This document shows, one piece after another, positions 5,049 through 46,484 of a stretch of 64,000 bases of DNA; within the stretch, counting starts at the first letter, position 1, and the number at the start of each line of letters is the position of its first letter. A model generated the notes under the pieces. The model saw only the letters and a program-made list of their open reading frames with translations, was not told the DNA's origin and did no database searches. Where the stretch lies: assembly GCA_964350815.1 (NCBI GenBank), contig CAYGKW010000001.1, forward strand, positions 92,120 through 156,119, given 5' to 3'. A program made the translations under genes and the position numbers. The DNA is from an uncultured Rhizobiaceae bacterium (GTDB lineage: Bacteria; Pseudomonadota; Alphaproteobacteria; UBA7879; VGCX01).

Positions 5049-5186
5049 ATTATTTCCTTTACCAAAATTATTGTACACATATATTGAATGAAAAAATATT
5101 AGAAAAAGGGAAATATGATTAAAAATTCATTGCCTGCTTTAAGTTTTTAATGCAGATTTTTTGTGTATATAATAAAGGGATAAATA

Positions 5187-16240: not shown

Positions 16241-17290
16241 ATGAAATTTTTTAACTATTGTAGGGTTCCTATGAAACTTATATTTTTTACACTAATTTTA
16301 ATTAACATATCACATACTGCTTTTGCCGCAGCTGCGGCTACTTCTTTGGCACCAGACTTGGAAGGTGTTGTTACGACAATGACAGAGCTTGAAGAAAGTT
16401 TTGGCGGAAGGGAAGCTGGAAAAAAAATTGATAAGCCTCTTTCTGCAGTTTATATGAGTACTGTAAGCGAAATTCCCGAAGATCCTGAAGAAGGAGTTGA
16501 GTACGAAACAGATGCAGATGGAATAAAGTATAAAATCAGAAGAAAAGAAATTATTCGATCTTATTACCTTCTTCCAGAATTTTTTGAGAGAGTTCAAACA
16601 GCCTACCCTTTTATTCAATATGATCCTGATGCATTTTCAAACCCAGAGGGAATTAGTTCCATGAGTCATAAAGGATTCATTCCGCAAGGAAAAGGTATGC
16701 TTGTTGATAGTTCTGCAGATTACAGCTTATGCACAAATTTTCTTGGAAACTGTGTGGCTATAGCTGCATATAATCCTGAGACTGGTCAACGGTTTTTAGC
16801 ACACGCCCAGTTCCCTGTTTCAACTGAAGTTCTTGAAAATCTTCTAGAGATACTGAGAACACTGTCAAAGGATGATTCTTCTAGCTTAAAGATGCATACA
16901 AGAACTTCTATTCTTACCCCCGGCAATATTTCCTATGTTGAATTTTTAATAAGCCATGGATATGATGTCAAGTTATCTGCGGCAAAAAGATTAATGATAA
17001 AATATGGTTTAGAACAAATTATTGGCCACGAATCTTTTATACCTGAAAGTGGAATGGATCAGCATCGTGCTTTGGCCCTTCGCCCAGATGGGGAAGTTAT
17101 TGAAATGGTTCATGCAGACACAGAACCTTTATTTCCACATATCTGTACAACAGGATGTGACAAACGTCCTGAAGATGTCAGTGAAGAAAATTGGGCTCTA
17201 TATCTTGATGCACACAAGCCTCTGAGCTCATCAGGCAGAATAATCCGCCCAGGTGTTGCCGAATATTCTTTCACAGAAACACTAAATTAA
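16241..17290 (+). CDS. Hypothetical secreted protein with a possible transglutaminase-like Cys motif
   Basis: Signal peptide MKLIFFTLILINISHTAFA. The central motif CTNFLGNCVAIAAYN resembles the G-x-C-x-x-[FA]-A transglutaminase/cysteine-peptidase core, and downstream His and Asp residues are present. This is weak. Confidence 0.45.
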   Translation: MKFFNYCRVPMKLIFFTLILINISHTAFAAAAATSLAPDLEGVVTTMTELEESFGGREAGKKIDKPLSAVYMSTVSEIPEDPEEGVEYETDADGIKYKIRRKEIIRSYYLLPEFFERVQTAYPFIQYDPDAFSNPEGISSMSHKGFIPQGKGMLVDSSADYSLCTNFLGNCVAIAAYNPETGQRFLAHAQFPVSTEVLENLLEILRTLSKDDSSSLKMHTRTSILTPGNISYVEFLISHGYDVKLSAAKRLMIKYGLEQIIGHESFIPESGMDQHRALALRPDGEVIEMVHADTEPLFPHICTTGCDKRPEDVSEENWALYLDAHKPLSSSGRIIRPGVAEYSFTETLN

Positions 17291-21858: not shown

Positions 21859-22512
21859 TTATTCTGGTCTTAATTTTGTAAAACTGTCTTTCCCAAGCCG
21901 TACATTTTTCAAGAAGGCTGTAAGCTGGTCATCTTTTGACTTTTCTTGGAATGCTTTAAACTTATCTTCGGGCAAAGATTTAACTACTTTATCCAACATT
22001 TTTTGTACGTTTATTGTATCAAAAGGTGTTCCACGATAAATAAATGCTTTTTTAAGATTATCCATACCCAGTGATACAATAACATTCATAAAATAATCAT
22101 ACATAAATTCTGTTGATTTCAAAGCCCCCTCACGGAATGATCCGCATCTGTTAAAACACATGCCTGCACTTGTTTTTTTAGCAATACTATTTTTAATAAG
22201 CATTATTGAAAAATAGGGCATTCCAGATACAGGATCTGTTTCCAGTAGGTGCATTGTTGCAAAATTTCTTTTTGTATTTTTTAGTCTATCTTTAAGATAT
22301 TCGTATTTTTTTTGATAGGCCCCTGACATATCTTTTTTCTGTTGTAAAACTTCTTCAATGCCCTCAATAATCTTTTGTGCTGCTTGTTCACCGCCCCAAC
22401 AGCGTGTACGGCATTCAATCATAGATCCATCATCATCTGCAACTGAAGATTTTGAATTAACCATAAATAGTGTTACTAACACCAAACTTAGTTTTAATAG
22501 ATTTATTTTCAT
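21859..22512 (-). CDS. Hypothetical secreted protein (217 aa)
   Basis: Signal peptide MKINLLKLSLVLVTLFMVNSKSSVA. Several Cys residues. No recognisable domain. Confidence 0.45.
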   Translation of the reverse strand: MKINLLKLSLVLVTLFMVNSKSSVADDDGSMIECRTRCWGGEQAAQKIIEGIEEVLQQKKDMSGAYQKKYEYLKDRLKNTKRNFATMHLLETDPVSGMPYFSIMLIKNSIAKKTSAGMCFNRCGSFREGALKSTEFMYDYFMNVIVSLGMDNLKKAFIYRGTPFDTINVQKMLDKVVKSLPEDKFKAFQEKSKDDQLTAFLKNVRLGKDSFTKLRPE

Positions 22513-26188: not shown

Positions 26189-27109
26189 TTATATTTTATT
26201 GGAGCCTAACAACTGATCCCAAGTTGGTAAATCTTTACCACTTTGGGCGCAATCCAATTTGTACTTCAAGACAAATTTATCATAATCATCTTGATCAAAA
26301 ATTTGCACCTTACCGTTTTCAATGCGGGCAACTTCTTTAGAACCGGATTCTAAATTATCTGCCCAATAAAGACGAATTTTATCAGCATTTTTGAAATAAA
26401 CTGGGAAGCGTTCAGGGAACATTTTACCTTTGTTAATGACATCTTCAGGTGTCGATTGATAGTTTGCCTGAGTTTTTGATCGATGCTCAACCGCACCTAA
26501 ACGCAACTTGTCTTGGGCAGAACACAAAACAAGTTCAATACGATACCCATTTTCTTTCAATGTTTTATATAAATTTTCAACAGCAGGGGATGTTGATGTT
26601 GTCCCATGCGCAATATTATAATTTTTGGCAAAGGCCTTGTTAATAATGGTTGAAGCAATATAATTTGATGCCCAACGCCAGCGATTGTAAGCCGCCTTTT
26701 GCGCAATGGCAAAACTTTCCACCTGACTTATTGCATGAAAGGATAAAGATTCGCTGATGTACGTGTTAATCATCAACTTCAACGCACGGGGATCCGGATC
26801 TGCATAAACAAAATTATTGTAGTCAGCCTCTGTTGTTAAAATAGTTTCCAGTGTGGTTGATTTTAAAGCCCCTGGGGCCCCAGCTGTTGCAATATATACT
26901 GGTTTCTTAACAGGTTTTTTATCGCGGAAAGATAGCGTTTCAACATTTTTCAGATCTTCATTGATAAGCTTTATTTCATCGTCACTATAGTTTTTTAAAT
27001 GTTCTGAAATAACAGTTTCTGGAATCAATACTTTATTTGAAGTGTCTTCACAGGCTGCCAAAAATATAAAAACAATTAATGTATTTAATATTTTCATTTT
27101 ATTCTCCAT
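26189..27109 (-). CDS. Lipoprotein with a zeta-toxin-like / P-loop-kinase-like domain (degenerate Walker A)
   Basis: Lipobox LAAC after the signal peptide. YIATAGAPGALKSTTLETIL is P-loop-like (GxxGxxKST). It is followed by NFVYADPDPRALK, which resembles the zeta-toxin/AAA_33 'IDxDxxR' segment. Confidence 0.4.
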   Translation of the reverse strand: MENKMKILNTLIVFIFLAACEDTSNKVLIPETVISEHLKNYSDDEIKLINEDLKNVETLSFRDKKPVKKPVYIATAGAPGALKSTTLETILTTEADYNNFVYADPDPRALKLMINTYISESLSFHAISQVESFAIAQKAAYNRWRWASNYIASTIINKAFAKNYNIAHGTTSTSPAVENLYKTLKENGYRIELVLCSAQDKLRLGAVEHRSKTQANYQSTPEDVINKGKMFPERFPVYFKNADKIRLYWADNLESGSKEVARIENGKVQIFDQDDYDKFVLKYKLDCAQSGKDLPTWDQLLGSNKI

Positions 27110-30653: not shown

Positions 30654-31250
30654 ATGTCTAAAAAATACCTATTGTTATTATCTTTATGTGTGGGAATTTC
30701 CACTGTGCCATTTGCTGCAAAAGCAAACTTTGGGAAAAAACTTGAAGCAATTAAGAACAGCAAAGATCCTACTGTTAATAAGTTGTCAGAAATATATACA
30801 GAAATTGATAATGCCTATCAAAACTTGGATGACAGTAAAATGACGGCAGAACAAATTGGCTTACAACTGTCAACAAAAGCCGCAAAAGCCGCTGCTGTCG
30901 CCAGAGAAATTGCAGAGGCCGATGGGAGCACGGGTGTAAAAGAAGAATTAGACCGTGTCACAGAACATACAAAATTTATCAGTTGTTATGCCTTAAATAA
31001 CAGGGAATATAAAAACCTTATGGAGGCCCTAAACAGCAGCAATGATGTTGGGATACAGGCCATGCTTGGAAAAACTGTGATGTGTCGAAAGATTGCAGGA
31101 ATCGCACGTGTAAAAGATGTGAATGATACAAACTTAATTCTTGAAAATATTGCCGGAACAACACCTGATTCACAAGAATGGGGAAGTGCCCTTGCAGTCG
31201 GGACATATATCATTTTTGATTCAGGAAACAAAACACCTGTAAGCGTTTAA
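30654..31250 (+). CDS. Hypothetical secreted protein (198 aa)
   Basis: Signal peptide MSKKYLLLLSLCVGISTVPFAAKA. Ala/Lys-rich helical region. No known domain. Confidence 0.45.
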   Translation: MSKKYLLLLSLCVGISTVPFAAKANFGKKLEAIKNSKDPTVNKLSEIYTEIDNAYQNLDDSKMTAEQIGLQLSTKAAKAAAVAREIAEADGSTGVKEELDRVTEHTKFISCYALNNREYKNLMEALNSSNDVGIQAMLGKTVMCRKIAGIARVKDVNDTNLILENIAGTTPDSQEWGSALAVGTYIIFDSGNKTPVSV

Positions 31251-31559: not shown

Positions 31560-31835
31560 CTAGTTTAATTGTTTGATTAAAAGTTTTCCTGCCCGGAAAA
31601 AAGGAATGTGCCGTTCGTCAATTTTGATTGCTTTTCCACTGCGCGGATCACAACCAATTCTTTCGTCTCTGTGCTTTACAAAGAAAGATCCAAATCCACG
31701 CAATTCAACGCGGTCGCCATTTTCCAATGCTTTTGTAATTTCTTCAAAAACAGTGACAATCATCTGTTCAACTTCCCGCTTGCTTTTATCAGGAAATTTC
31801 TGACTTAGCCGCTCAACTAATTCAGATCTTGTCAT
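31560..31835 (-). CDS. ihfB: Integration host factor subunit beta
   Basis: MTRSELVERLSQKFP...RVELRGFGSFFVKHRDERIGCDPRSGKAIKIDERHIPFFRAGKLL is collinear with E. coli IhfB. Confidence 0.85.
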   Translation of the reverse strand: MTRSELVERLSQKFPDKSKREVEQMIVTVFEEITKALENGDRVELRGFGSFFVKHRDERIGCDPRSGKAIKIDERHIPFFRAGKLLIKQLN

Positions 31836-32049: not shown

Positions 32050-33327
32050 TTAAAAATCATCAAATGGCCAGCCGCCTGGTGCGGTTGGGCCGGATGGCTG
32101 ACGTTGGGGCTGAGGTTGACGCTGTTGCTGCCCACCCCTTGCACCTTGTTGTGCAGGATTTTGTTGTTGACCTTGTGGCAAAGCCCTTTGCTGCTGGCCC
32201 CCTCCACTTTCTTGTTGAAAACCTAGTAAGCGCTTGATTTCATTTTGCATTATGGGATCTTGAACCAATTCCTGCATAAGATCTGGAAATGATAAACGCC
32301 CCCAATTTGCAGCCCTTTTAATCAAATGTGGGGCTGGGCTATGGGGATCCAACTCTTCCAGAAACTCTGCTGACTCTCTAATAATTTGATAGGCATGGGC
32401 ACGGCTTCGAATAACACTTGTTATATCTATGTTTTTGCCATCAACACCTAAGTCAGCCCCACCTTTGTTCTTTTTTTCGCCAGTTTCTTTAAGTTTTTCA
32501 GAATCTACCCCCCCCTCAGATGCAGGGTTTTCTTCAAAATCAGGTGCCTCTTGATCCATATCAGCACCACGGTAAGATAAAATTTGTTTACAAAACCTAC
32601 TGATATCGCCGACTTTGTTTTTCAAATTATGTAGTGATGTTGCATCTTTTTCTAATTTTTCATCCAAAAATTCTTCAAGCTTTGTTGCAATTTCAATTGT
32701 TGCATTTGCATCTTCCACCAACTCTTTAAAAAATGATGTATCCGTTTTCTCTAAGCTTTTCTCAAAAGAATCCAGGGTTTCAAGCTTACCTTTTGGCATC
32801 GACTTTGAATCATCTTTTTTGCGCCCAATGAAATGCTGTATATCAATATAGGATGCAAAAGTATGAACGTGTAATTCAGGATCATTCGGTTGGGTTGCAC
32901 GTATATTATTAATACGATCTGCCATTTTTTGATTTAACCATAGGTATGGGGCAAGGCGAAACTCTACATCATCCTCTTCCAACTTTGGATACCCATTATC
33001 CCAATACTTTTCAGACAACTTAAGCATTAATTCCAAGCCTGCCTTTAACCCTTTCAGGTTGTATAAATGCATCCAGGCTTCAACCAGCCATGCACATACT
33101 TGCAGGTCTTTGGATTTATTTTTAAGGGCTGGAACACACAAGTTTTCAACTTGTCGCCAATCTGCAGATTTCAGATCTTGAACCCAAACACCCTGAGGCA
33201 AATCATAATCTTGCCTTTGTGATTCTCTAACCTCGTCATAAATTTGACTATATTTTAAATCTTCACCTTCTGGTTTTGATTTAGATATGTCATTTAGATA
33301 GTCGTCAAGTGCCGTAATGTTTTGCAT
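32050..33327 (-). CDS. tssA: Type VI secretion protein TssA (ImpA N-terminal domain) with a Gln/Gly/Pro-rich C-terminal tail
   Basis: ImpA_N signatures SKPEGEDLKYSQIYDEVRESQ and KDLQVCAWLVEAWMHLYNLKGLKAGLELMLKLSEKYWDNGYP. The C-terminal 60 aa are low-complexity (GGGQQQRALPQGQQQNPAQQGARGGQQQRQPQPQRQP...WPFDDF). Confidence 0.75.
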   Translation of the reverse strand: MQNITALDDYLNDISKSKPEGEDLKYSQIYDEVRESQRQDYDLPQGVWVQDLKSADWRQVENLCVPALKNKSKDLQVCAWLVEAWMHLYNLKGLKAGLELMLKLSEKYWDNGYPKLEEDDVEFRLAPYLWLNQKMADRINNIRATQPNDPELHVHTFASYIDIQHFIGRKKDDSKSMPKGKLETLDSFEKSLEKTDTSFFKELVEDANATIEIATKLEEFLDEKLEKDATSLHNLKNKVGDISRFCKQILSYRGADMDQEAPDFEENPASEGGVDSEKLKETGEKKNKGGADLGVDGKNIDITSVIRSRAHAYQIIRESAEFLEELDPHSPAPHLIKRAANWGRLSFPDLMQELVQDPIMQNEIKRLLGFQQESGGGQQQRALPQGQQQNPAQQGARGGQQQRQPQPQRQPSGPTAPGGWPFDDF

Positions 33328-36300
33328 TAGGAACCTCCCTTCCTTTCAGCAATTAATGCCGGGGCTTCTATTGGGAATTCAGGAATCTTAAAGTTAGGAG
33401 ACCGAACACCGTTTGCCGTTAATGGGATAACTTTCATAAATAAGATCGCATTATCCACAGGTGAAAGCTGAGGGTTATAGCCCAAAGGAATATCAAATTT
33501 TAATAACGTATCTGAATTTGTCTGACCCCCTTCTTTTGTTGGTGTTTGGTGGATCATCATTGCACGCAATAGGGCCCAATACCCTTGATAAACATACATG
33601 GCGCGCCCAGCAACAAGTGTCAAAGCTTGTGGCCCTGAATTTTCCACAGGACGTAGAGGCGCATTGACCGCCCATTGGAATCCAAATGCTGTGTTGTTTC
33701 CAAGTTGCCATCTTATGGGCAGTTTTCCCTCTTTTTCACTAAATGAATTTTCACCCAAAATAACAGCCCAATCGATAACCTGGTCACCAAATTTCTCACG
33801 CATTTTATTTTGATTAAATTCAATTTCAACATCCATACCCGGGGCGCCATCTTTTTCTTTTGGCGCAAGGTATTTATCAAAGAACTCACGAACCCTATCC
33901 ATCTTGTTTAAGAAAACTTTTGCTTTTTTCCATGTCTTGGAATAATGCTCCATGCTTTTAATTGATTCACGGGCATTTGCATTAACCAGATCATAAAGCT
34001 TAAAGAACTCTTCTAAAATTTTATCTGATACATCTGCAGAAATAACTGGCTCTTCTGGAACACCCTTCATGAATGGGAAGGCCCCAGCCATGTGTTTGTT
34101 AAAGAAGTTCGCCATTGTATTGTATTGTTCTGCCGCCTTACCTGCTGTCACTTCTTGACAGCGGTGGTAAATACCGCGACGCAATACATTGCGACGGTGT
34201 AAGAAATAATCCCCAGAAATTTGTTCAGCATCATACTTTGTAATTTTTTCAAAACAGTTTTCAAAGGTAATTTGATTTCCCTCTTCAACCATAAAGGTTT
34301 CAAGTATTTTCAAGGTACTGTCTGCTTTGTCGTTGCCATATTCAGCAGCTGCAGTCATCAAGCGTAACCAGCGATCAAATAATTTTACCTCTTTTAAATT
34401 CATTGCAAAAACATCTGATTTCAAGAACTGCATAACAGGGGCTGCATATTCACGAACAAGATGCATTAAGCGTCTAGATTGATTGGCAATATAAGCCTGC
34501 ATTTCATGACGATCTGCCATATTATAAGCGCGGAAGATTACACGGCTTCCTTCATTCCACCAACTAAAGTTTTCATCGCCAATGGAAAAGTAATCACTTT
34601 CCATCAAGATTTTATCAAGCTTCTTTAAGTTGCCGTACATCTGTTCAAACAATAAGTTGCGCAAGTTTGTATATGTTTCAACACTCCCAATGTCATCCAA
34701 CTTAGAAAGCAATTTAATAAATAAAGGCCCAACCAAATTAATATTATCCACTTGTGATCTGGCGGCATCCTCTGCCTGACGACTCCACATTTCTGTGGGC
34801 TCATCATAGAAAGTTTGGGCCCGGCCAAGCATGACGTCAATATTACGCTGCAACTGTTTTAAGCCAACCACGCGTAATGTATCTTGTATGTCTGCAGGGT
34901 ATCCAGGCAACTCTTCTTTAAGAAATTCATTATAAGCCTCGATCAAGCCAATTGAATTTTGAATCATTTGCTTGTCCCAATGCAATAATTCACCTTTTGG
35001 CATTTCTGCGATGAAAGCTTCCCCTTTTACTTGGGCCATAAAGGGCTTGTTTAAGAAAAGGCCCAAACCTTTTTCTAAAGTAACCAACCCGGGGGATGGT
35101 TTTAAACGTTTGGTTTGCCCCGACGTTGTAAAGAAATACCCTGTAACCGGAGACCCGTAGCTTTTTAAATAACGTGTGGCTTTTTCATAAACTTTTTCTG
35201 ATACAACAGCCAAACGTTTAACAACATTTTTATTAAAGGTTTTGGCTTTTTGTACTTTTTGAATGGTTTCATGATATTTTGAACCCGGGTCAAATTCTGG
35301 TTTTGTAAGCCAATTTCCACTTGCCCCTGAAATAAAGTTGACCAGCTGTTTAATTTCAATAAGGGTTTTTCTGAAACTTTGGATATCAGGAATACCACTT
35401 CCATCAACATCATCCAAAGTTTCTTGTAATTGGGAAGCCAAAGCATAAATATATTTAGGGTCTAAAATGCGTTCCAAGAAATTATTATAAAGTTCATACA
35501 ATCTTTTTTCTGCGTATAAACGATAGTTTCCAACATTAAATGGCTTGTAATGTGCCTCACCTATGACACGGGTTTTTAAACTTGATCTATCTTTTAAGAA
35601 TGCTTCGGGGAAAGAAAAATTAAACAAGTATTTTGCAACTTTTTGCAAGGCTTCTGGGTCTTTAGAGTTCGTCAAATTATTATATAAAATTGACCGATCT
35701 TCCAACATTAAAATGGCATCCACAAATCCTTCTAGCGCCAGAAATTCTGGAGTTGATGTAGGATCAAGAACCATACGTTGTTTCCCAGGCAATTCAGGAA
35801 TTTTTGGAAGTTCCGTCCGCATAATTTTTTCTGCTTTCGCATTGAAAGACATAAACATCGGCCGGGCAATAATTAGGTTATAGGTATCGTAAACTTCCTG
35901 ATCAATTTTTGCATTTAATGTACTGAACCACGAAGCTGGTAAAAATATGCTATTAATGCGATATTGTGATGCCTTGGAAACCAAATCCAAAACACTTTGT
36001 GCCCGCTTTTCAAACAAAAAGCTTCCTATTTGGTTTTCAGAAATCTGGTGCCCCCCACGCAGCTGAAGATCATGCAAAATTTTCATAAAGGCAGGCTGAA
36101 CTTTTGAAACATTTTTACGAATACTATTTTGGCCAAAATACAACCCTAAAGTACCCAAAACAACCGCGACAATAACCCCAATTTTTAGATAACTTATAGT
36201 ACGGTTTGTCGTTGTTAAGAACCTTTTGATTGGTGTTGCAATGCCTTCTTCCTCAAAAATTTTCTTTGCAAAAAGGTCTTTTAAGAACAATAATTTTATT

Positions 36301-37505
36301 TTACGTTTCCACGGAGATTCATCCGGAATATCATCCCCAAACTGAACATCGGAAACAGGCTCCATGTTTGTATTTCCCGTTAAGTAAATACCCCTTAAGG
36401 CAAAGTGATCACGGTAATCATCTATTTTAAAAATGCGATCAATATATTTTTGAACCCCTGATTCCAGAGATTCAAAAGATTGCGGGAAAATCATCACATC
36501 ATCACGGTATTCTTCTGTGCGACCCCTGGAAAAAATCTGAAGAACAGATTCAAACAAATACCCATAAATTGTTTTAAAGGCCTCACTTATCCATCTTGGA
36601 TTATAATTCATATCCGTTGTGTAAGGATTTGACCACCCTAAAATTTCTTTATGTGTTTTTGGCAAAAGTTCATTGCAGTATCCTTTAAATCCTGCAATGT
36701 GATCGCATTTGGTAATCAAAACATAAATTGGTAATTTAATCCCCAAATACTTTTCTGTTTTCACAAGCTGGTCAGATAACGCATCAGCCTTTTGACGCAA
36801 TTCTTCATCTGTAAGTTTGTATTTACCCAAAAAATAATTGGCAGGAACCGTCAAAATTAAACCATCCAAAGGACGCTTCCCCCTGATTTTTGACAGGTTT
36901 TTTAAAAGTGTTATCCAATCAGAACCCTTTGAAGCCTTAGGGTCTGAAAAAAGACAGTGCCCAGCAGGATCAATAACGATACCCTTTTCATAAAACCACC
37001 AATTAACAGTTGGGTTTTTTTCAGGAAACCCAAACTTTGGACTGTCAATTGGATGTGGAATTCCCAAATTTTTCAAAACTGTGGATTTGCCAGAAGCCCC
37101 ATCGCCGACCATCATGTACCATGGAACTTTGTAAACATAATCTGTTCCGCCGATGCGTTCTTTTAAACATTTCCTTACAGCTTCAAAAGAATTTTTAATA
37201 GCGCCATCAGGCTGAAAACCTAAAGCTTCTATAATTTTCTTTAGAAAATCTAAAACTTTTGGGAATTTTTCTTTTAGATAGGCCTTGCCTTTATCTAACC
37301 CCCCACCCTTTGTTTCTTCTTTAGTCGTGAAATATTTTTTGTAAAATTCCGTTTCTTTGAAATTAAATTTTCGACGCCCCTTCATGCCTGTACCAGCAAA
37401 AAAAGCGACAACAACAAATATCGCAAGACCTAACAAAAGGACAAACAAAAGAAGTTGGGGTAGATTATTTGTTAGCTGTCCCCCTGTCATTGCTTTTGCA
37501 CCCAA
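33327..37505 (-). CDS. tssM: Type VI secretion membrane-complex protein TssM (IcmF family), 1392 aa
   Basis: N-terminal TM helices. Walker A MMVGDGASGKSTVLKNLG and D-box DGLILTV. Long IcmF-like periplasmic C-terminal domain. Its start overlaps the end of tssL by 19 nt. Confidence 0.9.
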   Translation of the reverse strand: MGAKAMTGGQLTNNLPQLLLFVLLLGLAIFVVVAFFAGTGMKGRRKFNFKETEFYKKYFTTKEETKGGGLDKGKAYLKEKFPKVLDFLKKIIEALGFQPDGAIKNSFEAVRKCLKERIGGTDYVYKVPWYMMVGDGASGKSTVLKNLGIPHPIDSPKFGFPEKNPTVNWWFYEKGIVIDPAGHCLFSDPKASKGSDWITLLKNLSKIRGKRPLDGLILTVPANYFLGKYKLTDEELRQKADALSDQLVKTEKYLGIKLPIYVLITKCDHIAGFKGYCNELLPKTHKEILGWSNPYTTDMNYNPRWISEAFKTIYGYLFESVLQIFSRGRTEEYRDDVMIFPQSFESLESGVQKYIDRIFKIDDYRDHFALRGIYLTGNTNMEPVSDVQFGDDIPDESPWKRKIKLLFLKDLFAKKIFEEEGIATPIKRFLTTTNRTISYLKIGVIVAVVLGTLGLYFGQNSIRKNVSKVQPAFMKILHDLQLRGGHQISENQIGSFLFEKRAQSVLDLVSKASQYRINSIFLPASWFSTLNAKIDQEVYDTYNLIIARPMFMSFNAKAEKIMRTELPKIPELPGKQRMVLDPTSTPEFLALEGFVDAILMLEDRSILYNNLTNSKDPEALQKVAKYLFNFSFPEAFLKDRSSLKTRVIGEAHYKPFNVGNYRLYAEKRLYELYNNFLERILDPKYIYALASQLQETLDDVDGSGIPDIQSFRKTLIEIKQLVNFISGASGNWLTKPEFDPGSKYHETIQKVQKAKTFNKNVVKRLAVVSEKVYEKATRYLKSYGSPVTGYFFTTSGQTKRLKPSPGLVTLEKGLGLFLNKPFMAQVKGEAFIAEMPKGELLHWDKQMIQNSIGLIEAYNEFLKEELPGYPADIQDTLRVVGLKQLQRNIDVMLGRAQTFYDEPTEMWSRQAEDAARSQVDNINLVGPLFIKLLSKLDDIGSVETYTNLRNLLFEQMYGNLKKLDKILMESDYFSIGDENFSWWNEGSRVIFRAYNMADRHEMQAYIANQSRRLMHLVREYAAPVMQFLKSDVFAMNLKEVKLFDRWLRLMTAAAEYGNDKADSTLKILETFMVEEGNQITFENCFEKITKYDAEQISGDYFLHRRNVLRRGIYHRCQEVTAGKAAEQYNTMANFFNKHMAGAFPFMKGVPEEPVISADVSDKILEEFFKLYDLVNANARESIKSMEHYSKTWKKAKVFLNKMDRVREFFDKYLAPKEKDGAPGMDVEIEFNQNKMREKFGDQVIDWAVILGENSFSEKEGKLPIRWQLGNNTAFGFQWAVNAPLRPVENSGPQALTLVAGRAMYVYQGYWALLRAMMIHQTPTKEGGQTNSDTLLKFDIPLGYNPQLSPVDNAILFMKVIPLTANGVRSPNFKIPEFPIEAPALIAERKGGS

Positions 37506-38251
37506 TAATTAACTTGATCTACTATATTTTCCATATCATTTGTTTCAGTCACCCAGACAATTTGCGATAAAATGATGAAGGCAACGACAACACCGCACAA
37601 ACCCATAACCCAGTTACGTGTCATTGGCATTTTCATTGCATCTCGCTGGTCTATTGTATGCTGATAAGCCTGGGGAAACAATTCAGAAACACCATCCAAG
37701 ACAGCAGGTGAATCTTGCATTAACCTTGAAAAAAGTTGATCGCGATATTTTTTCAAAGCCCCTTTACTATCAACATCACGATAGCGTCCTTTAAACCCCA
37801 GGCCAAGTGCCAACAAATACATAACACCAATATCCGTATTTGCTGAATCTCGAACACCTAAAAATTGGTCTAAATTTTTAAACAACTTTTCCCCTGCCAC
37901 CTGGCTGTTGAATATTTTTGATTCCAGAAGGTTATTTTCCCATTCATCTTGACCAACCCATTTTAGGTTAATAAAAATTTCATCTGCCAGCCCCACCATG
38001 ATATATTGTGCTTCACGATAATAACGTGCTGCATAACCACCACCATGCTTTTCAATATATTGGTACTGTGAATCCAACAGATTATACAATCGGTCATGGA
38101 TTTTTTTAGAAAGGGACTCCCCTTCTTTTCCATCTTCACTTGTTGACAAAAATTCTCCAGACAGCGCTGACGCTTTAAGCATCACAACTTCTTCATAAAA
38201 AGTCTTAAAGTCTTTTAATATAAGTGACTTTATAAGCTTTTCATGACGCAT
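37487..38251 (-). CDS. tssL: Type VI secretion protein TssL (DotU/IcmH family), no OmpA-like peptidoglycan-binding extension
   Basis: DotU core motif YLLALGLGFKGRYRD. A single C-terminal TM helix (VMGLCGVVVAFIILSQIVWV). 254 aa. Confidence 0.8.
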   Translation of the reverse strand: MRHEKLIKSLILKDFKTFYEEVVMLKASALSGEFLSTSEDGKEGESLSKKIHDRLYNLLDSQYQYIEKHGGGYAARYYREAQYIMVGLADEIFINLKWVGQDEWENNLLESKIFNSQVAGEKLFKNLDQFLGVRDSANTDIGVMYLLALGLGFKGRYRDVDSKGALKKYRDQLFSRLMQDSPAVLDGVSELFPQAYQHTIDQRDAMKMPMTRNWVMGLCGVVVAFIILSQIVWVTETNDMENIVDQVNYWVQKQ

Positions 38252-38272
38252 AAAAATTCCTCCTAAAAACCT

Positions 38273-39607
38273 TTACCCAGCTGTATACAAAACAATTTCA
38301 GCCGGACGCGTATTTTGCGAGTCAGACAGATTGAATATTTGAAGTTTCTCACCTGTCTTGACATACTCTGAATCCATTTTTACTTTGATCAGCAATCGTC
38401 CTTGACTCATAGTCAGGCCCATTTCAGAAACTTGCTCAACAATTTCACGTGGGGCGCCCAATATCCTTTTCTCTCTGGCACTTTCTGCAACAGATTCAGA
38501 GGCAATTACAGCCTCACGCATCCAATCTGATGCCATTTTTGGAGAAATGTCTGAGCTGATCTTCAAACCCAAAACAAGGTAACCTGCATGCATCCATTCG
38601 GACTGAATCTTTTTTTCAAAAATTCTGTCAGATAATGTGAATGGAATAGAAACTGAGGCACTTTGGACCAAATCTAACATACGATTCACAAATGAAATAA
38701 CAGGGGTGAAAGTCGCCCTTAAATCATTGTGATTGTATGGATCAAATATCGGGGGCATATGCCCTTTACTTAAAGAACAAAAAACACCTGCTGCAATAGA
38801 TAATTCCCGGTACGCCATAAAGGGGTGTGATGTTTCTGCAAATAAAAGAGCCTCAAGCCCCAACAAGCGACTTACAATTATATCATAAGTTTTTTTGTAC
38901 TGGTCCATGATAGGCGCTGTATCTTGGGTTACAGGGGCCTGTAGTCGTTCAGATAAATGGGACACCCTTTTTCTTAGGGCTTTAACCACATTACTTAATA
39001 ATTTTCCAATTGGTCCATCCCTGCGTATCGTTGTAAAGGGGGGAATAAAATCTTCCCTAACAAAAGCATCATCTTTATAGCGCACCCGCATCAAAGGAAA
39101 ACTTGAATATCTTGATGAAATATCATCACCTACAAACAATGAAACTTTTAAAGACAACCGAGGAATTGGAATTGGGGCTTCCCCCGTATTTTCATCCGGA
39201 ATTGTCTTGCCTTCAACTGAATCATAGCGCGGAAAATCGCCTTCACTGTTGGCAGCATCTTCATGACGCTTAACAACAGCCAAATGAATCATCATCGGCT
39301 TTTCTTGAAGCTGATCTTTAAATTCATTAATATCCAGTTCAATTTTCTTTTGTTCGTTAATTTCTTTTTTAACAATACTGCCATCTGGCATAACAGCCAG
39401 TAACTCTTGAATACGAATAATACCACTTGTAAAAGCAGCCTCATCCAATTGCATATAACGCACACCCCAATAAAAAGGTGTCGACATGCTAAGGTAACAA
39501 AGGGACAATTGTTGATATTCCAACCGCATTTGTTGGTAATGCTGTGGATATAACAACATCCCTTCATGCCATTGAACGGGATCGACTATCTTGAAAGTTT
39601 TTTCCAT
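38273..39607 (-). CDS. tssK: Type VI secretion baseplate protein TssK (ImpJ/VasE)
   Basis: N-terminal signature VQWHEGMLLYPQHYQQ (W-x-E-G-M-x-L-x-P-Q-H-F/Y-Q-Q). About 440 aa, the typical TssK length. Confidence 0.85.
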   Translation of the reverse strand: MEKTFKIVDPVQWHEGMLLYPQHYQQMRLEYQQLSLCYLSMSTPFYWGVRYMQLDEAAFTSGIIRIQELLAVMPDGSIVKKEINEQKKIELDINEFKDQLQEKPMMIHLAVVKRHEDAANSEGDFPRYDSVEGKTIPDENTGEAPIPIPRLSLKVSLFVGDDISSRYSSFPLMRVRYKDDAFVREDFIPPFTTIRRDGPIGKLLSNVVKALRKRVSHLSERLQAPVTQDTAPIMDQYKKTYDIIVSRLLGLEALLFAETSHPFMAYRELSIAAGVFCSLSKGHMPPIFDPYNHNDLRATFTPVISFVNRMLDLVQSASVSIPFTLSDRIFEKKIQSEWMHAGYLVLGLKISSDISPKMASDWMREAVIASESVAESAREKRILGAPREIVEQVSEMGLTMSQGRLLIKVKMDSEYVKTGEKLQIFNLSDSQNTRPAEIVLYTAG

Positions 39608-39768
39608 GTATTATGCCTTGGTGCCCTGAATATTTAAATCACTTCATAAATTTTGATACAAAAACCAATACTTTATCCTACATTCAAGTCACCTTAAAGA
39701 CAAGCCTTCTAAGAAAAAAAATAAAGATAAAGGGTTGTTTTGTTTCAAGAATTTGAATACTTAAGAAA

Positions 39769-39845
39769 TGGTAGCGAGGGAGGGACTCGAACCCCCGACA
39801 CGCGGATTATGATTCCGCTGCTCTAACCAGCTGAGCTACCCCGCC
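39769..39845 (-). tRNA. tRNA-Met (CAU anticodon); could be the lysidine-modified tRNA-Ile2
   Basis: Minus-strand sequence GGCGGGGTAGCTCAGCTGGTTAGAGCAGCGGAATCATAATCCGCGTGTCGGGGGTTCGAGTCCCTCCCTCGCTACCA folds as a cloverleaf. The anticodon loop is AUCAUAA, TΨC is GTTCGAGTC, and 3' CCA is encoded. No initiator-type 3×G-C anticodon stem. Confidence 0.85.
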
Positions 39846-39918: not shown

Positions 39919-40572
39919 ATGAAAAAACAAGTGAAAATTGCCCCATCAATTCTTTCTGCTGATTTTTCAAAACTAGGAGAAGAGATCAAAGCCGTTGAAA
40001 AAGCAGGCGCTGACTGGATCCACTTGGATATTATGGACGGGCATTTTGTCCCCAACATTACCATTGGTCCAGATGTTATAAAATCAATTCGCCCCCATAC
40101 AAAATTGTTTTTTGATGCCCATTTAATGATTGAACCTGCCTCACCTTATATCGAAGCATTTGCAAAGGCTGGGGTTGACAGTATTACAACCCATGTAGAG
40201 TTAGATGAAGTCGAAGAAAATATAAAATTAGTAAAAAATTACGGCAAAAAGGTTGGGCTTTCCCTTAACCCAGACACCCCCTCTGAACAACTTTTGCCCT
40301 ATTTAGATGATATTGATTTAATCTTAGTCATGACCGTTCATCCAGGTTTTGGGGGACAAAAATTTATTGAATCTCAGTTAGGTAAAATTCAAGCACTACG
40401 TCAAAAAATTGATCAAACAGGGCGTGATATTGTACTAGAAGTCGATGGGGGCATTAATCCTGATACAGCCAAACTTGCAATTGATGCAGGGGCTGATGTG
40501 TTGGTTGCGGGTACTTCTGTTTTCAAAAGTGAAAATTACAAAAAGAATATTAACGCATTACGCTTGCATTAG
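39919..40572 (+). CDS. rpe: Ribulose-phosphate 3-epimerase
   Basis: IAPSILSADF, HLDIMDGHFVPNIT and MTVHPGFGGQKF motifs. Confidence 0.9.
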   Translation: MKKQVKIAPSILSADFSKLGEEIKAVEKAGADWIHLDIMDGHFVPNITIGPDVIKSIRPHTKLFFDAHLMIEPASPYIEAFAKAGVDSITTHVELDEVEENIKLVKNYGKKVGLSLNPDTPSEQLLPYLDDIDLILVMTVHPGFGGQKFIESQLGKIQALRQKIDQTGRDIVLEVDGGINPDTAKLAIDAGADVLVAGTSVFKSENYKKNINALRLH

Positions 40573-41317
40573 AGCTTTCCATAAATTCAGCGTAATCTTC
40601 TTTGCCAAATTCAGGCGTTGAATCATTTGGATCTGCATCTCTTTTTTTGCGCATTTTTCTTATTTTATCGCGAATGCCATATTGAATATTTTTGGCCTCC
40701 TTCGGCCAAGTTATAAATTGGGCATATTTTCTGGCTTGATCAATAAACTGTTTTTCATGTCGGGGGCGTGCTTTTTCAAACGGGCGCTTCATGTCTTTTT
40801 GATACGGCAGGGCCACAGCATCATTAATTTCATCTTCCCCATCTGCATCTATAAGACCAATTTTTCTAAAATGGTTTCTAACTTCGATGGCCAAAGCTGC
40901 AGACAAACTAAATAATACATCCCTGTCATCATCTGATAGTTTTTCATATACTTTTCTGTAAGATTCGATATTTCCTTGCTTCATAAATCCATCAAACAAG
41001 GAAGAATAAAAAGGGGCCCGTTCGTCCAGTGTGTTTAAACTTTCCATAAAAATTATGGCACAATTTTTAGACTCAATAAATGGGCACTTTGACACCACTT
41101 CTGTTACATCTTTTAATGACAACATACATTGTTCAACCGAATAATTTGGACACCCTTTATTTTTAGGTTTCCCTTCAGTCATTGCATGACTTTTAAAGGC
41201 AAGAAGCCCTATAAAAATCACAAAATATTTTTTATGATATCGCCATGACAAGCCAAATAATAGTAACAAGATTGTAAATCCCAACCCGTATGCTGTGAAT
41301 AAATAGAAATTATGCAC
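40550..41317 (-). CDS. Hypothetical membrane-anchored protein (255 aa)
   Basis: N-terminal TM helix or signal anchor, then a Cys-containing region and a charged C-terminus. No known domain. Overlaps the ccmC end by 8 nt. Confidence 0.4.
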   Translation of the reverse strand: MHNFYLFTAYGLGFTILLLLFGLSWRYHKKYFVIFIGLLAFKSHAMTEGKPKNKGCPNYSVEQCMLSLKDVTEVVSKCPFIESKNCAIIFMESLNTLDERAPFYSSLFDGFMKQGNIESYRKVYEKLSDDDRDVLFSLSAALAIEVRNHFRKIGLIDADGEDEINDAVALPYQKDMKRPFEKARPRHEKQFIDQARKYAQFITWPKEAKNIQYGIRDKIRKMRKKRDADPNDSTPEFGKEDYAEFMESSNASVMR

Positions 41318-44267: not shown

Positions 44268-44768
44268 TTATTTTTTAGCCGGGGCTTTTTTAGCCGCGGG
44301 CTTTTTTACAGCAGATTTCTTTTCTGGTGATTTCTTTGCCGTAGAAACTTTCTTGGCAGGGGCTGCTTTTTTCGCCGCTGGCTTTTTTGCAACAGATTTT
44401 TTAACTGTTGTTTTTTTTGCTTCTGGCTTTTTTGTGCCAAAATCAACAGAACCTGTTAAAGATGTTTTCTTAAGTTCAGCAAGTTTTTGACTTTCCCATT
44501 CTGGCCTTAGGAAGGGCAACCGATCGCGAATGGAATAAAGCAATCGATAATATGCCCCATCAATTACTTCTAACTTTGATGCCTTAAAAAATAGGGAAGC
44601 ACCCCAAATTACGATGATCCAAATCGGCCAAAAATAACCAGCCCCTGACATCATCCATATTAAAAATGTTCCACCTACAACGGCTAGGTAAGAATAAAAA
44701 CCCATAAAAAAGTTTTTTAATAAGCGAACGTGCTCTTTTATTTCTTGTTCATTTTTGAAAGTTTTCAT
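44268..44768 (-). CDS. Two-TM-helix protein with a Lys/Ala-rich histone-H1-like C-terminal tail
   Basis: Two adjacent TM helices (2TM-type), then KKPEAKKTTVKKSVAKKPAAKKAAPAKKVSTAKKSPEKKSAVKKPAAKKAPAKK. The start is taken at MKTFKNEQ so that it does not overlap rluC. Confidence 0.5.
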   Translation of the reverse strand: MKTFKNEQEIKEHVRLLKNFFMGFYSYLAVVGGTFLIWMMSGAGYFWPIWIIVIWGASLFFKASKLEVIDGAYYRLLYSIRDRLPFLRPEWESQKLAELKKTSLTGSVDFGTKKPEAKKTTVKKSVAKKPAAKKAAPAKKVSTAKKSPEKKSAVKKPAAKKAPAKK

Positions 44769-44787
44769 TAAAGCCCTCCAGCGCCTT

Positions 44788-45765
44788 TTATTTTTGTTCC
44801 TGTAAGAATGATATTGTATCATCTATTTCATTGGATGATACATCAAAGCCAAGCATTTTTAAAGTTGTTTTGTAATGGTCGGGAAGTGCTGTTTTATATG
44901 AATTTGATTTATTTTCCGTGTTTCCAAGTATTAATTTATAAGAATGTAGGTGCAATTTATTTGGAAGTCCATCCATAACAGGCTGTTCTTCTTCATTGTA
45001 TTTTTTATCCCCAATAATTGGGCACCCCATAAGCGACATGTGGGCACGAAGCTGATGGTTGCGCCCTGTGATTGGCATCAAGGCTACAAATGCAGCAGAT
45101 TCCCCGATTTTATCAATCACTTTATAAAAAGTTAAAGCCTTGTCACCTTCTTCATCTCCAATGACTTTTTCAAACCCATCAAACCATTTTTTTGATAAAG
45201 GCACATCTATTTTTCCTTCAGGTAGTTCTGGCACCCCCTGTGTTACAGCCAAGTATATCTTTGTTACTTCCCGAGATTTAAATTGCTGCCCAAGCTTTTG
45301 GGCGGCTGTTTTGTTTTTAGCAATAACCATTGTTCCCGATGTTTCTTTATCAAGGCGATGTACCAGATGATAAGAATTTCCATCTTCATTTCCAAGGGCT
45401 TGAATTAGACCATCTAAATGCTTTGTAAGTTTTGATCCCCCTTGGGAGGCCAATCCAGAAGGTTTATTAATAATAATAAAATTTGGTTTTTCAACAACAA
45501 TAGATTTCTTAAATTCTTCAAGTTCTTGGCTTGTTGCGGTGTATATCTTTTTGGGCTGTGATTCGGTTGGTTGAATATTACCTTCAATAACAACTTTGTC
45601 GTTGTCTTGAACTCGTGTTTTTCCTTCTGCTGGATTTCCATTTACCAAAATCTTTTTTTTACGAAGAAGTTTTGAAACTAAGCTATGCGGCACCCCTGGG
45701 AATTCAGATTTAATCCATTTATCTAGGCGCATTGGCTGCGGTGCATTTGTAATATTTTTTTCCAT
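44788..45765 (-). CDS. rluC: RluA-family 23S rRNA pseudouridine synthase (RluC-like)
   Basis: N-terminal S4 domain (RLDKWIKSEFPGVPHSLVSKLLRKKKILVNG). Catalytic HRLDKETSGTMVIAKN. Confidence 0.8.
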   Translation of the reverse strand: MEKNITNAPQPMRLDKWIKSEFPGVPHSLVSKLLRKKKILVNGNPAEGKTRVQDNDKVVIEGNIQPTESQPKKIYTATSQELEEFKKSIVVEKPNFIIINKPSGLASQGGSKLTKHLDGLIQALGNEDGNSYHLVHRLDKETSGTMVIAKNKTAAQKLGQQFKSREVTKIYLAVTQGVPELPEGKIDVPLSKKWFDGFEKVIGDEEGDKALTFYKVIDKIGESAAFVALMPITGRNHQLRAHMSLMGCPIIGDKKYNEEEQPVMDGLPNKLHLHSYKLILGNTENKSNSYKTALPDHYKTTLKMLGFDVSSNEIDDTISFLQEQK

Positions 45766-45825: not shown

Positions 45826-46101
45826 TTAATCCATTGCTTCCATATCAACTGGAACAGCTTCCCCATCCCACAGTCTTACGACTTGTTCTAGACGATCATG
45901 CTTTTCATCAACCATTCGGGCTGCTAAAGACATTAGATAGTCTGCTTGTCCAGCTGACGTATCATCCATGGATACATGGGCTTCATCAAGTTCTGCCTGG
46001 ATACGGGTATAATTCTCCCCATAAATTCCACGTGCTCTGTCATGGGCAAATTTTTGACCTGATGCCATGATTAATTTAATCATCTTCAATACCAGAAACA
46101 A
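45826..46101 (-). CDS. Hypothetical 91-aa ORF in a relatively GC-rich segment; possibly a gene fragment
   Basis: ORF only, with no recognisable domain. A second stop-free frame without a start codon lies immediately upstream at about 46107..46335. Confidence 0.25.
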   Translation of the reverse strand: MFLVLKMIKLIMASGQKFAHDRARGIYGENYTRIQAELDEAHVSMDDTSAGQADYLMSLAARMVDEKHDRLEQVVRLWDGEAVPVDMEAMD

Positions 46102-46484
46102 AGTCTGCAGCTTCTTCCTCTATAACAACTGATCTAAGCGAGAGCGTTACTGCATGTTCCGAAGCAGCAGCATCTTCTTTAGAATCCCTGGAATCAATTT
46201 TTAATAAATGTCTTTTTCCTGCTAATCTTAACAGTGGGGGGTTTATCGTGAGTACCCCTGGCTGATAATTCTTCTGTTACATCTGTCTATGCTGCAAAAG
46301 AGTTTTGGCTGGAAAGCAGAACGCTTAATGCCGCAACGGATATGCCCTTCATTAAGGGCTCACTACAATTACATTGTCTTATATTTTTTTGCAAATAGAA
46401 AACCATAAAAAAAGTATAGAATTAGACAAATTTTTAATTCCTTGTTTTTTCTGTGGAATTTTTAGAACAAAAAAAGTACTAAAT

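What the first reader, a model, noticed from the sequence alone, without database searches (positions are those of the whole stretch)
32050..39845. Stand-alone tssK–tssL–tssM–tssA module with no other T6SS genes in the window
Four minus-strand genes encode T6SS parts: TssK (VQWHEGMLLYPQHYQQ), TssL (DotU-type), TssM (IcmF-type with Walker A, 1392 aa) and TssA (ImpA_N). tssL and tssM overlap by 19 nt; the rest are tightly spaced. A tRNA-Met lies directly upstream and ihfB downstream. None of the 64 kb encodes TssB/C sheath, Hcp, VgrG, ClpV, TssE/F/G or TssJ. Either the rest of the system is elsewhere in the genome, or this is a reduced or repurposed anchoring module that uses membrane-complex and baseplate-docking parts without a contractile apparatus. 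The TssL has no peptidoglycan-binding extension and no TssJ lipoprotein is nearby, so a divergent membrane complex is plausible. Placement next to a tRNA gene suggests island-type acquisition.
Basis: partly seen in the sequence, partly recalled or inferred. Interest (0 to 1): 0.8.

Follow-up and report, generated by a model that had tools for sequence, protein, structure and literature searches.

The report
Split-off piece of a scattered T6SS
The four genes are real and intact, but they match the published tssK-tssL-tssM-tssA block of a type VI secretion system whose genes are normally scattered around the chromosome in Holosporales-type symbionts, so the finding is ordinary rather than a stand-alone or repurposed module.

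Summary
Four tightly packed minus-strand genes encode TssK, TssL (short form), TssM (Walker A) and TssA. No other T6SS gene lies in the 64 kb. One correction: tssM most likely starts at the ATG at 37490, giving 1387 aa and a 4-nt ATGA overlap with tssL, not at the TTG with a 19-nt overlap.

The "stand-alone or repurposed module" and "tRNA-linked island" readings are not supported.
- The same isolated K-L-M-A block, set among housekeeping genes, occurs in every relative examined (42-88% TssK identity), including MAGs titled Holosporaceae.
- The literature describes exactly this layout for Holosporales families: [tssK-L-M-A], [tssB-C-hcp], [tssG-F] and [ywqK-vgrG] at separate loci.
- Base composition is flat across the block.
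- rpe and tRNA-Met are conserved neighbours in distant relatives.
- dN/dS is 0.03-0.05, like the neighbouring rpe gene.
- The long TssM aligns end to end with TssM from complete, contiguous T6SS clusters.

I could not search the rest of this genome, so the sheath, tube and baseplate loci are inferred, not shown. Verdict: already known; interest is low.

The parts
38273..39607 (-). tssK: baseplate subunit that links the baseplate to the membrane complex (444 aa)
   Evidence: PF05936 E=8e-42. TIGR03353 205 bits against a cut-off of 100. The N-terminal 310 aa match solved TssK structures 5M30 and 6GIY at E=1.5e-11. dN/dS is 0.035 against conspecific L015.
37487..38251 (-). tssL: short-form DotU-family inner-membrane subunit (254 aa), with one C-terminal transmembrane segment and no OmpA/PG-binding domain
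   Evidence: PF09850 E=1e-26. TIGR03349 80.5 bits, just under the cut-off of 90. Matches V. cholerae VCA0115 (4V3I) at E=1.5e-6. Transmembrane segment at residues 213-235. dN/dS 0.026.
33327..37490 (-). tssM: IcmF-family inner-membrane NTPase with a ~930-aa periplasmic region. Probable ATG start at 37490 (1387 aa); the longest ORF starts at TTG 37505.
   Evidence: PF14331 E=1e-46. TIGR03348 198 bits (cut-off 388), aligned only over residues 105-459. Walker A GDGASGKS and two transmembrane-like segments. Aligns end to end (residues 66-1368, E=1e-123) with the TssM of complete T6SS cluster L011, and likewise with L005. ATGA overlap with tssL. dN/dS 0.031. The periplasmic region has no Pfam or PDB sequence match.
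32050..33327 (-). tssA: ImpA_N-type TssA with a ring-forming C-terminal domain plus a 55-aa Q/P/G-rich tail (425 aa)
   Evidence: PF06812 E=3e-34. TIGR03363 257 bits against a cut-off of 161, model covered 3-353 of 353. Matches B. cenocepacia TssA N-terminal region 6HS5 at E=6.5e-25 and its C-terminal domain 6H8F at E=2.7e-6. dN/dS 0.051.

Best explanation
This is the tssK-tssL-tssM-tssA operon of a type VI secretion system whose core genes are dispersed over several chromosomal sites, the normal layout in Holosporales-type alphaproteobacterial symbionts.

Proposed mechanism, inferred from what is established for the homologous T6SS-i proteins:
- TssL and TssM build the envelope-spanning membrane complex.
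- TssK docks the TssE/F/G-VgrG baseplate onto the cytoplasmic face of that complex.
- TssA primes and caps polymerisation of the Hcp tube and the TssB/C sheath.

The sheath (in close lineages a fused TssB::TssC), an Hcp-like protein, TssE, TssF/G and VgrG are expected at other loci of the same genome.

Shown here: gene identities, intactness, strong purifying selection, vertical inheritance at a conserved chromosomal site, and the lineage-wide split architecture.

Inferred: that this particular genome carries the remaining loci, and that the four genes are co-transcribed (4-nt and 1-nt overlaps and a 21-nt gap).
For: 1. Identity. The four proteins match the TssK, TssL, TssM and TssA profiles and solved T6SS subunits.

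2. Same isolated block in relatives. The four-gene block sits among housekeeping genes in L002 (55% TssK identity), L003 (44%), L004 (42%) and L015-17 (conspecific). L006 (42%, contig ends inside tssM) and L007 (88%, ends at the 3' end of tssM) show the same upstream context. L008, L009 and L010 also carry all four genes; the last two are titled 'uncultured Holosporaceae bacterium'. tblastn finds no tssB, C, hcp, E, F, G, clpV or vgrG in the up to 10 kb of DNA held on each side.

3. Literature. [quoted passage not shown] PMC11909080 says the T6SS is conserved in almost all Holosporineae genomes.

4. Partner loci exist in the lineage.
   - Fused TssB::TssC proteins are found in Ca. Cytomitobacter, Ca. 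Nesciobacter, NHP-B and Holosporaceae/Holosporales MAGs.
   - L014 has tssBC plus an Hcp-like ORF, with tssG-tssF 3 kb away among housekeeping genes.
   - L018 and L019 have an isolated tssBC plus Hcp-like ORF.
   - Of the first 80 of 92 metagenome loci carrying the lineage's TssC motif, 35 also have tssE and only 3 have any of K, L, M or A nearby.

5. The long TssM belongs to complete machines. L005, L011-13 and L112 have contiguous clusters with a 1369-1404-aa TssM. That TssM gives the same single Pfam hit, and the window's TssM aligns to the L005 and L011 copies end to end.

6. Function is maintained. dN/dS is 0.026-0.051 for the four genes against 0.054 for rpe, at dS of about 0.28.

7. 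Vertical inheritance.
   - GC is about 0.38 throughout.
   - The tetranucleotide correlation of the 32-40 kb chunk with the whole window is 0.951, within the range of the other chunks (0.949-0.972).
   - rpe and tRNA-Met lie upstream of tssK in L007 and L003 as well.
   - TssK and Rpe identities run in parallel: 88% and 86% with L007, 44% and 46% with L003.
Against: - The rest of this genome could not be searched.
- I found no sheath, tube or baseplate locus demonstrably from this species. There were no shared contig lengths and no shared samples. The best tetranucleotide match among TssBC loci was r=0.84, against at least 0.95 for conspecific DNA.
- The organism is an unnamed MAG. Its placement in Holosporales rests on record titles of relatives at 51% and 37% TssK identity and on symbiont-type gene content, not on a phylogeny.
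- No TssJ-like lipoprotein is adjacent, although one precedes tssK in the contiguous clusters L005 and L011.
- The periplasmic part of TssM matches no Pfam or PDB entry. The outer part of the membrane complex is therefore not understood.
Confidence: 0.86

Rival explanations
1. Truly stand-alone module. This genome has lost, or never had, the sheath, tube and baseplate genes. The conserved K-L-M-A set then works alone as an envelope-anchored platform with some non-contractile role.
For: - No other T6SS gene lies in 64 kb.
- None lies in the up to 10 kb of DNA held on each side of the block in any relative examined.
- The genes are under strong constraint, so they do something.
- I could not find this species' sheath locus.
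Against: - The published genomes of the lineage that carry the same K-L-M-A block also carry tssB/C, hcp-like, tssE/F/G and vgrG at other sites (PMC8163844; 10.1101/719211).
- Dispersed tssBC-hcp-tssE loci are abundant in related low-GC MAGs.
- TssK and TssA have no known role other than coupling the baseplate and sheath to the membrane complex.
Confidence: 0.06
2. Recently acquired genomic island, integrated at the 3' end of tRNA-Met and carrying a partial T6SS.
For: The block begins 161 nt downstream of the 3' end of a tRNA gene on the same strand, which is the classical island geometry.
Against: - GC and tetranucleotide signature cannot be told apart from the flanks.
- No direct repeat of the tRNA 3' end occurs anywhere in the window.
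- No integrase or transposase family was found in the window.
- The rpe-tRNA-Met-tssK neighbourhood is shared with relatives at 88% and 44% TssK identity.
- T6SS proteins have diverged in step with Rpe.
Confidence: 0.03
3. Decaying remnant of a T6SS that is being lost during genome reduction.
For: - The lineage consists of reduced symbionts.
- Holospora species have lost the T6SS altogether (PMC11909080).
- A neighbouring patatin-like gene is a remnant in this strain.
Against: - All four ORFs are full length, including one of 1387 aa.
- The translationally coupled gene junctions are intact.
- dN/dS is 0.03-0.05, at or below the value for the housekeeping neighbour rpe.
- Gene lengths are conserved across relatives.
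Confidence: 0.02

Closest known systems
Dispersed T6SS of Holosporales (Ca. Bodocaedibacter vickermanii, Paracaedibacteraceae, Caedimonadaceae; Midha et al. 2021, PMC8163844)
   Same: Same four genes in the same order as an isolated operon among housekeeping genes. No adjacent TssJ. Low-GC symbiont-type genome. Relatives of the window's TssK come from MAGs titled Holosporaceae.
   Different: This species is an unnamed MAG. Its other sub-loci ([tssBC-hcp(-tssE)], [tssG-tssF], [ywqK-vgrG]) were not seen here. Its family-level placement was not established.
Contiguous T6SS-i clusters with the same long TssM (L011-13 Alphaproteobacteria MAG; L005; L112)
   Same: Same K-L-M-A order. TssM of 1369-1404 aa gives only the IcmF-related_N Pfam hit and aligns over its full length with the L005 and L011 copies. 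The L005 and L011 clusters carry a TssA that aligns with the window's, which is TIGR03363-type; the DNA held for L112 ends inside tssM.
   Different: In L005 and L011-13 the block is preceded by a TssJ-like lipoprotein and followed directly by tssB-C-hcp-E-F; L011-13 continue with tssG-clpV-vgrG, while L005 ends inside tssF. In L112 tssBC-hcp-tssE-F-G and a TssJ-like ORF come before tssK. In the window and its clade none of these genes is adjacent.
Canonical TssJLM membrane complex and TssK baseplate connector of enteroaggregative E. coli Sci-1
   Same: The TssK N-terminal region matches the solved EAEC TssK (5M30, 6GIY). The TssL cytoplasmic domain and the TssM cytoplasmic NTPase domain belong to the same families.
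   Different: No TssJ was identified. The TssM periplasmic region is about 200 aa longer and has no detectable sequence similarity to the solved TssM or to PF06761/PF06744. Two hydrophobic segments were detected here; three is what I recall as usual for TssM (for the count here, the comparison value is from memory).
IcmF/DotU (IcmH) of the Dot/Icm type IVB secretion system
   Same: TssM and TssL belong to the same IcmF and DotU superfamilies.
   Different: The type IVB-specific models score far below their cut-offs: IcmF_IVB 28 bits against 1000, and IcmH_DotU_IVB 24 bits against 50. TssK and TssA are T6SS-specific as far as I know (not tested here). No dot/icm genes are present in the window.

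Membership tests
T6SS core component TssK | Match to the TssK equivalog model above its curated cut-off | tested here: met
   TIGR03353 205.5 bits against a cut-off of 100. PF05936 143.9 bits against 23.4. Matches solved TssK structures.
T6SS core component TssA (ImpA_N type with ring-forming C-terminal domain) | ImpA_N domain plus a full-length match to a TssA equivalog model | tested here: met
   TIGR03363 257.5 bits against a cut-off of 160.85, model covered 3-353 of 353. 6HS5 and 6H8F (B. cenocepacia TssA) are matched.
T6SS core component TssL (short form) | DotU domain, a single C-terminal transmembrane helix, no OmpA-like extension | tested here: met
   PF09850 94 bits against a cut-off of 27. 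One transmembrane segment at residues 213-235 and 254 aa in total. The NCBIfam models fall below their cut-offs: TIGR03349 80.5 against 89.95, and TssL_short 39.5 against 180. The protein is therefore divergent.
T6SS core component TssM | Full-length match to the TssM equivalog, including the periplasmic IcmF-related and IcmF_C domains | tested here: not met
   TIGR03348 197.7 bits against a cut-off of 388, aligned only over residues 105-459. PF06761 and PF06744 gave no hit, even at E up to 1 in nine orthologues. No PDB sequence hit.
T6SS core component TssM | Orthology to the TssM encoded inside complete T6SS gene clusters, with a Walker A NTPase domain between transmembrane segments | tested here: met
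   End-to-end tblastn alignment with the TssM of L011 (E=1e-123); the L005 TssM aligns with L011's in the same way. Both lie in J-K-L-M-A-B-C-hcp-E-F... clusters. PF14331 159.8 bits. Walker A and transmembrane segments at residues 11-33 and 436-456.
Dispersed Holosporales T6SS (PMC8163844) | tssK-tssL-tssM-tssA as an isolated operon flanked by housekeeping genes | tested here: met
   Seen in the window and in the relatives whose DNA spans the block: L002, L003, L004, L008, L009, L010 and L015. L006 ends inside tssM.
Dispersed Holosporales T6SS (PMC8163844) | Separate [tssB-tssC-hcp], [tssG-tssF] and [ywqK-vgrG] loci in the same genome | not testable with these tools
Indirect attempts failed: matching contig lengths, samples and accessions, tetranucleotide signature, and a motif scan of metagenomes. 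Such loci do exist in related lineages (L014, L018, L019).
Dispersed Holosporales T6SS (PMC8163844) | Host organism belongs to Holosporales | tested here: inconclusive
   Two of four GTDB-representative relatives are titled 'uncultured Holosporaceae bacterium' (51% and 37% TssK identity). The other two are titled only 'Alphaproteobacteria'. No marker-gene phylogeny was run. Supporting hints: GC of 38%, DUF2608/DUF2659 proteins in the window, and LRR/Sel1 proteins in relative L006.
tRNA-associated genomic island | Atypical composition, an integrase, a direct repeat of the tRNA 3' end at the far border, patchy distribution among relatives | tested here: not met
   GC is flat. Tetranucleotide r=0.951, like other chunks. 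No integrase family was found. No repeat of the tRNA 3' end. Synteny is conserved in L007 and L003.
Type IVB (Dot/Icm) IcmF-DotU pair | Match to the IVB-specific IcmF and IcmH/DotU equivalogs | tested here: not met
   NF038226 28.4 bits against a cut-off of 1000. NF038228 24.4 bits against a cut-off of 50.

The most novel reading that the evidence does not exclude
In this species the K-L-M-A set may be all that is left of the T6SS, kept under housekeeping-level selection. It would then be a self-sufficient envelope complex with no TssJ, a TssM periplasmic domain of unknown fold, and TssK/TssA used for something other than docking a contractile tail. A weaker version would still be of some interest: the machine is complete, but its membrane complex is built without TssJ around a structurally new TssM periplasmic domain.
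Probability: 0.06. Interest if true: 0.7.

Novelty: already known. Interest (0 to 1): 0.15.

Why it matters
As found, it matters little. It is one more instance of a published gene arrangement.

It does serve as a caution: in Holosporales-type symbionts, T6SS genes must be searched genome-wide, because cluster-based detection will report "incomplete" systems.

The lineage's T6SS is itself poorly understood.
- No TssJ has been recognised.
- Hcp is highly divergent.
- The sheath is a natural TssB::TssC fusion in many members.
- The TssM periplasmic region matches no known domain.
- There are no experimental data.

Structural or imaging work on any member would therefore be informative. That interest belongs to the lineage, not to this window.

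Tried and rejected
1. Search with a canonical TssC (L005) to find the clade's sheath gene. The top 120 hits were all at least 74% identical soil-type TssC and did not discriminate.

2. Matching 'longest contig' values between the TssK-clade hits and the TssBC hits, to catch both on one contig. No matches inside the clade.

3. Accession proximity within NCBI MAGs. The closest case was MFN7710413 against MFN7662644, which are not the same MAG.

4. Sample matching. The window species occurs in JGI 3300023296, SRR7528804, ERR3534985 and ERZ27316027. The TssBC candidates looked up (P0265, P0415, P0512) come from other samples.

5. DNA-pattern scan of metagenome contigs for the lineage-specific FCW...[IV]RGVEGGG motif in TssC. 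It returned 92 loci, none from the window species' samples. That collection evidently does not hold every sample that the protein database draws on.

6. Tetranucleotide signature to pick out a conspecific TssBC locus. The best was r=0.84 (L038), against at least 0.95 for conspecific DNA and 0.925 for the sister species.

7. Using the Hcp-like ORF as a lineage-specific probe. It is too divergent and has no shared 8-mer.

8. Structure of the TssM periplasmic region. The single-sequence model had pLDDT 35 and was unusable, so no fold search was run.

9. TssJ candidates next to the block.
   - The 198-aa secreted ORF at 30654..31250 has no family match.
   - The 255-aa ORF at 40550..41317 has a weak CcmD-like N-terminus and follows ccmC, so it is probably unrelated to the T6SS.

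10. Literature search for orphan tssKLMA modules turned up nothing relevant. A search for natural TssB-TssC fusions also found nothing.

Full report
**What is there**

Four minus-strand ORFs lie at 38273..39607, 37487..38251, 33327..37505 and 32050..33327. They match the TssK, DotU/TssL, IcmF-related_N/TssM and ImpA_N/TssA profiles with E-values from 1e-26 to 1e-46.

- TssK and TssA exceed the curated NCBIfam equivalog cut-offs: TIGR03353 205 bits against 100, and TIGR03363 257 bits against 161.
- TssL falls just under its cut-off.
- TssM is matched only over residues 105-459: TIGR03348 198 bits against 388.
- TssK, TssA and TssL also match solved T6SS subunits. These are EAEC TssK 5M30, B. 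cenocepacia TssA 6HS5 and 6H8F, and V. cholerae VCA0115. TssM matches nothing in the PDB by sequence.
- TssM has a Walker A motif (GDGASGKS) and two hydrophobic segments that bracket the cytoplasmic domain.
- TssL has one C-terminal transmembrane helix and no peptidoglycan-binding domain.

The sequence shows an ATGA stop/start overlap, and gene calls on identical public contigs start there, giving 1387 aa. tssM and tssA overlap by 1 nt, and tssK and tssL are 21 nt apart. Co-transcription and translational coupling are therefore likely, though inferred.

tRNA-Met (39769..39845) and a probable ihfB (31560..31835) flank the block as stated.

**Nothing else of a T6SS in the window**

- Every non-overlapping ORF of at least 70 aa was scanned against Pfam. 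Only housekeeping families appeared, such as def, photolyase, ntrYX, trkA, parE/gyrB, accD, der, bamB, ccmABC, ispA, uvrC, mgtE, hemF, recR and dnaX. A few ORFs had no match.
- tblastn with the complete protein set of a contiguous T6SS cluster (L011) hit only K, L, M and A in the window.

**The same isolated block recurs in a whole lineage**

The TssK search found a tight clade of about 40 proteins at 42-88% identity, almost all from unnamed alphaproteobacterial MAGs. Below that, identity drops to about 38% for generic T6SS.

I examined L002, L003, L004, L006, L007-L010 and the conspecific L015-17. In each, tssK heads the same block, preceded by housekeeping genes. No other T6SS gene lies within the DNA held, up to 10 kb on each side. 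L006 and L007 end within tssM, so only their upstream side is informative. Two of the four GTDB representatives are titled "uncultured Holosporaceae bacterium".

**The literature describes exactly this**

- Midha et al. [quoted passage not shown]
- George et al. (10.1101/719211) and the 2025 review (PMC11909080) describe the Holosporaceae T6SS as conserved but "modified", with no recognisable TssJ or Hcp.

**Partner loci in the lineage**

I started from contiguous clusters of the same subtype:

- L005 runs TssJ-like lipoprotein, K, L, M, A, B, C, hcp, E, F.
- L011-13 run the same order and continue through G, clpV and vgrG.

A representative search with their TssC led to a fused TssB::TssC protein in a 558-kb MAG (L014). 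There it is followed by an Hcp-like ORF, and tssG-tssF lie 3 kb away among housekeeping genes.

Homologues of this fusion include Ca. Cytomitobacter primus, Ca. Nesciobacter abundans, NHP-B and MAGs named Holosporaceae or Holosporales. L018 and L019 show another isolated tssBC plus Hcp-like locus.

A DNA-pattern scan for a TssC motif typical of these proteins returned 92 metagenome loci. Of the first 80, 35 carry tssE after tssBC and only 3 have any of K, L, M or A nearby. Some of these loci have separate tssB and tssC, so the motif is not restricted to the fused form.

L112 is a contiguous cluster that combines a fused TssBC with a 1404-aa TssM. This ties the two kinds of locus to one machine type.

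**The long TssM is a subtype trait**

The window's TssM aligns from residue 66 to 1368 with the TssM of L011, and likewise with L005. In all nine orthologues tested, including those from complete clusters, the periplasmic region of about 930 aa has no Pfam hit.

**Not an island, not a remnant**

- GC is about 0.38 across the window.
- The 32-40 kb chunk has the same tetranucleotide correlation with the whole window (0.951) as the other chunks (0.949-0.972).
- There is no integrase and no repeat of the tRNA 3' end.
- rpe and tRNA-Met lie upstream of tssK in L007 (88% TssK identity) and L003 (44%). cobO and a homologue of the 255-aa ORF lie upstream in L004.
- TssK and Rpe have diverged in parallel: 88% and 86% identity with L007, and 44% and 46% with L003.
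- Against a conspecific contig (dS about 0.28), dN/dS is 0.035 for K, 0.026 for L, 0.031 for M and 0.051 for A, compared with 0.054 for rpe.

**What remains unproven**

I could not search the rest of this genome. All indirect routes to its sheath or baseplate loci failed, as listed under Tried and rejected. The claim that the remaining genes are elsewhere in this genome is therefore an inference from close and distant relatives and from the literature. I put it at about 0.86. A genuinely stand-alone module remains possible at a few per cent.

**Verdict**

The exciting interpretation is not supported. This is the known K-L-M-A sub-locus of a dispersed, Holosporales-type T6SS. Interest is low.

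Noticed in passing
window 45829..46364; L015 2132..3799: The window carries only fragments of a patatin-like phospholipase gene, matching residues 19-62, 78-121 and 470-555 of 555. A conspecific metagenome contig has the intact 555-aa gene (PF01734) at the same place, between ispA and rluC. This looks like a strain-level loss of a possible effector.
   Followed up: partly
L014 10001..12052; L018 10001..12022; L112 10001..12049; proteins P0408-P0526: In Holosporales-type lineages the sheath is a single fused TssB::TssC protein of 630-720 aa, with VipA and VipB domains in one ORF. More than 100 clusters show this, including Ca. Cytomitobacter, Ca. Nesciobacter and NHP-B. A set of 683-aa Pseudomonas aeruginosa entries looks fused as well. 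I found no paper on this fusion in the library.
   Followed up: partly
L014 12064..12606; L018 12038..12610; L112 12083..12688: The 180-200-aa ORF directly after tssBC has no Pfam hit in L014 or L018. It shares a TTGG...EIK motif with Hcp, and in L112 it is PF05638-positive. This is probably the Hcp that genome papers report as missing in Holosporaceae.
   Followed up: partly
window 33327..36113 (TssM residues 460-1387): The periplasmic part of TssM, about 930 aa, has no Pfam or PDB sequence match in this protein or in eight orthologues, two of them from complete T6SS clusters. The single-sequence AlphaFold model was unusable (pLDDT 35).
   Followed up: partly
window 40550..41317 (-): A 255-aa ORF after ccmC has a weak CcmD-like N-terminus (E=0.015) and an extension of about 200 aa with no family match. 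A homologue at 27% identity sits directly upstream of tssK in L004.
   Followed up: partly
window 32050..32214 (TssA residues 371-425): TssA ends in a 55-aa Gln/Pro/Gly-rich low-complexity tail that lies beyond the end of the TIGR03363 match (residue 369).
   Followed up: no
window 26189..27109; 4233..5078; 44268..44822; 16241..17290; 21859..22512; 30654..31250: Several genes have the look of an intracellular symbiont. They are a lipoprotein-like ORF with a Zeta_toxin domain, a DUF2608 protein, and a 2TM protein with a Lys/Ala-rich Hc2-like tail. Three further ORFs with signal-peptide-like N-termini have no family match. The relative L006 carries giant LRR and Sel1 repeat proteins near tssK.
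   Followed up: no
L054; L044: A few metagenome contigs show partly intermediate layouts. In L054, tssB-tssC-tssE lies a few kb from tssM-tssA on the opposite strand. In L044, tssK, L and M lie about 5 kb upstream of tssB-tssC. These may be stages in the break-up of the cluster.
   Followed up: no
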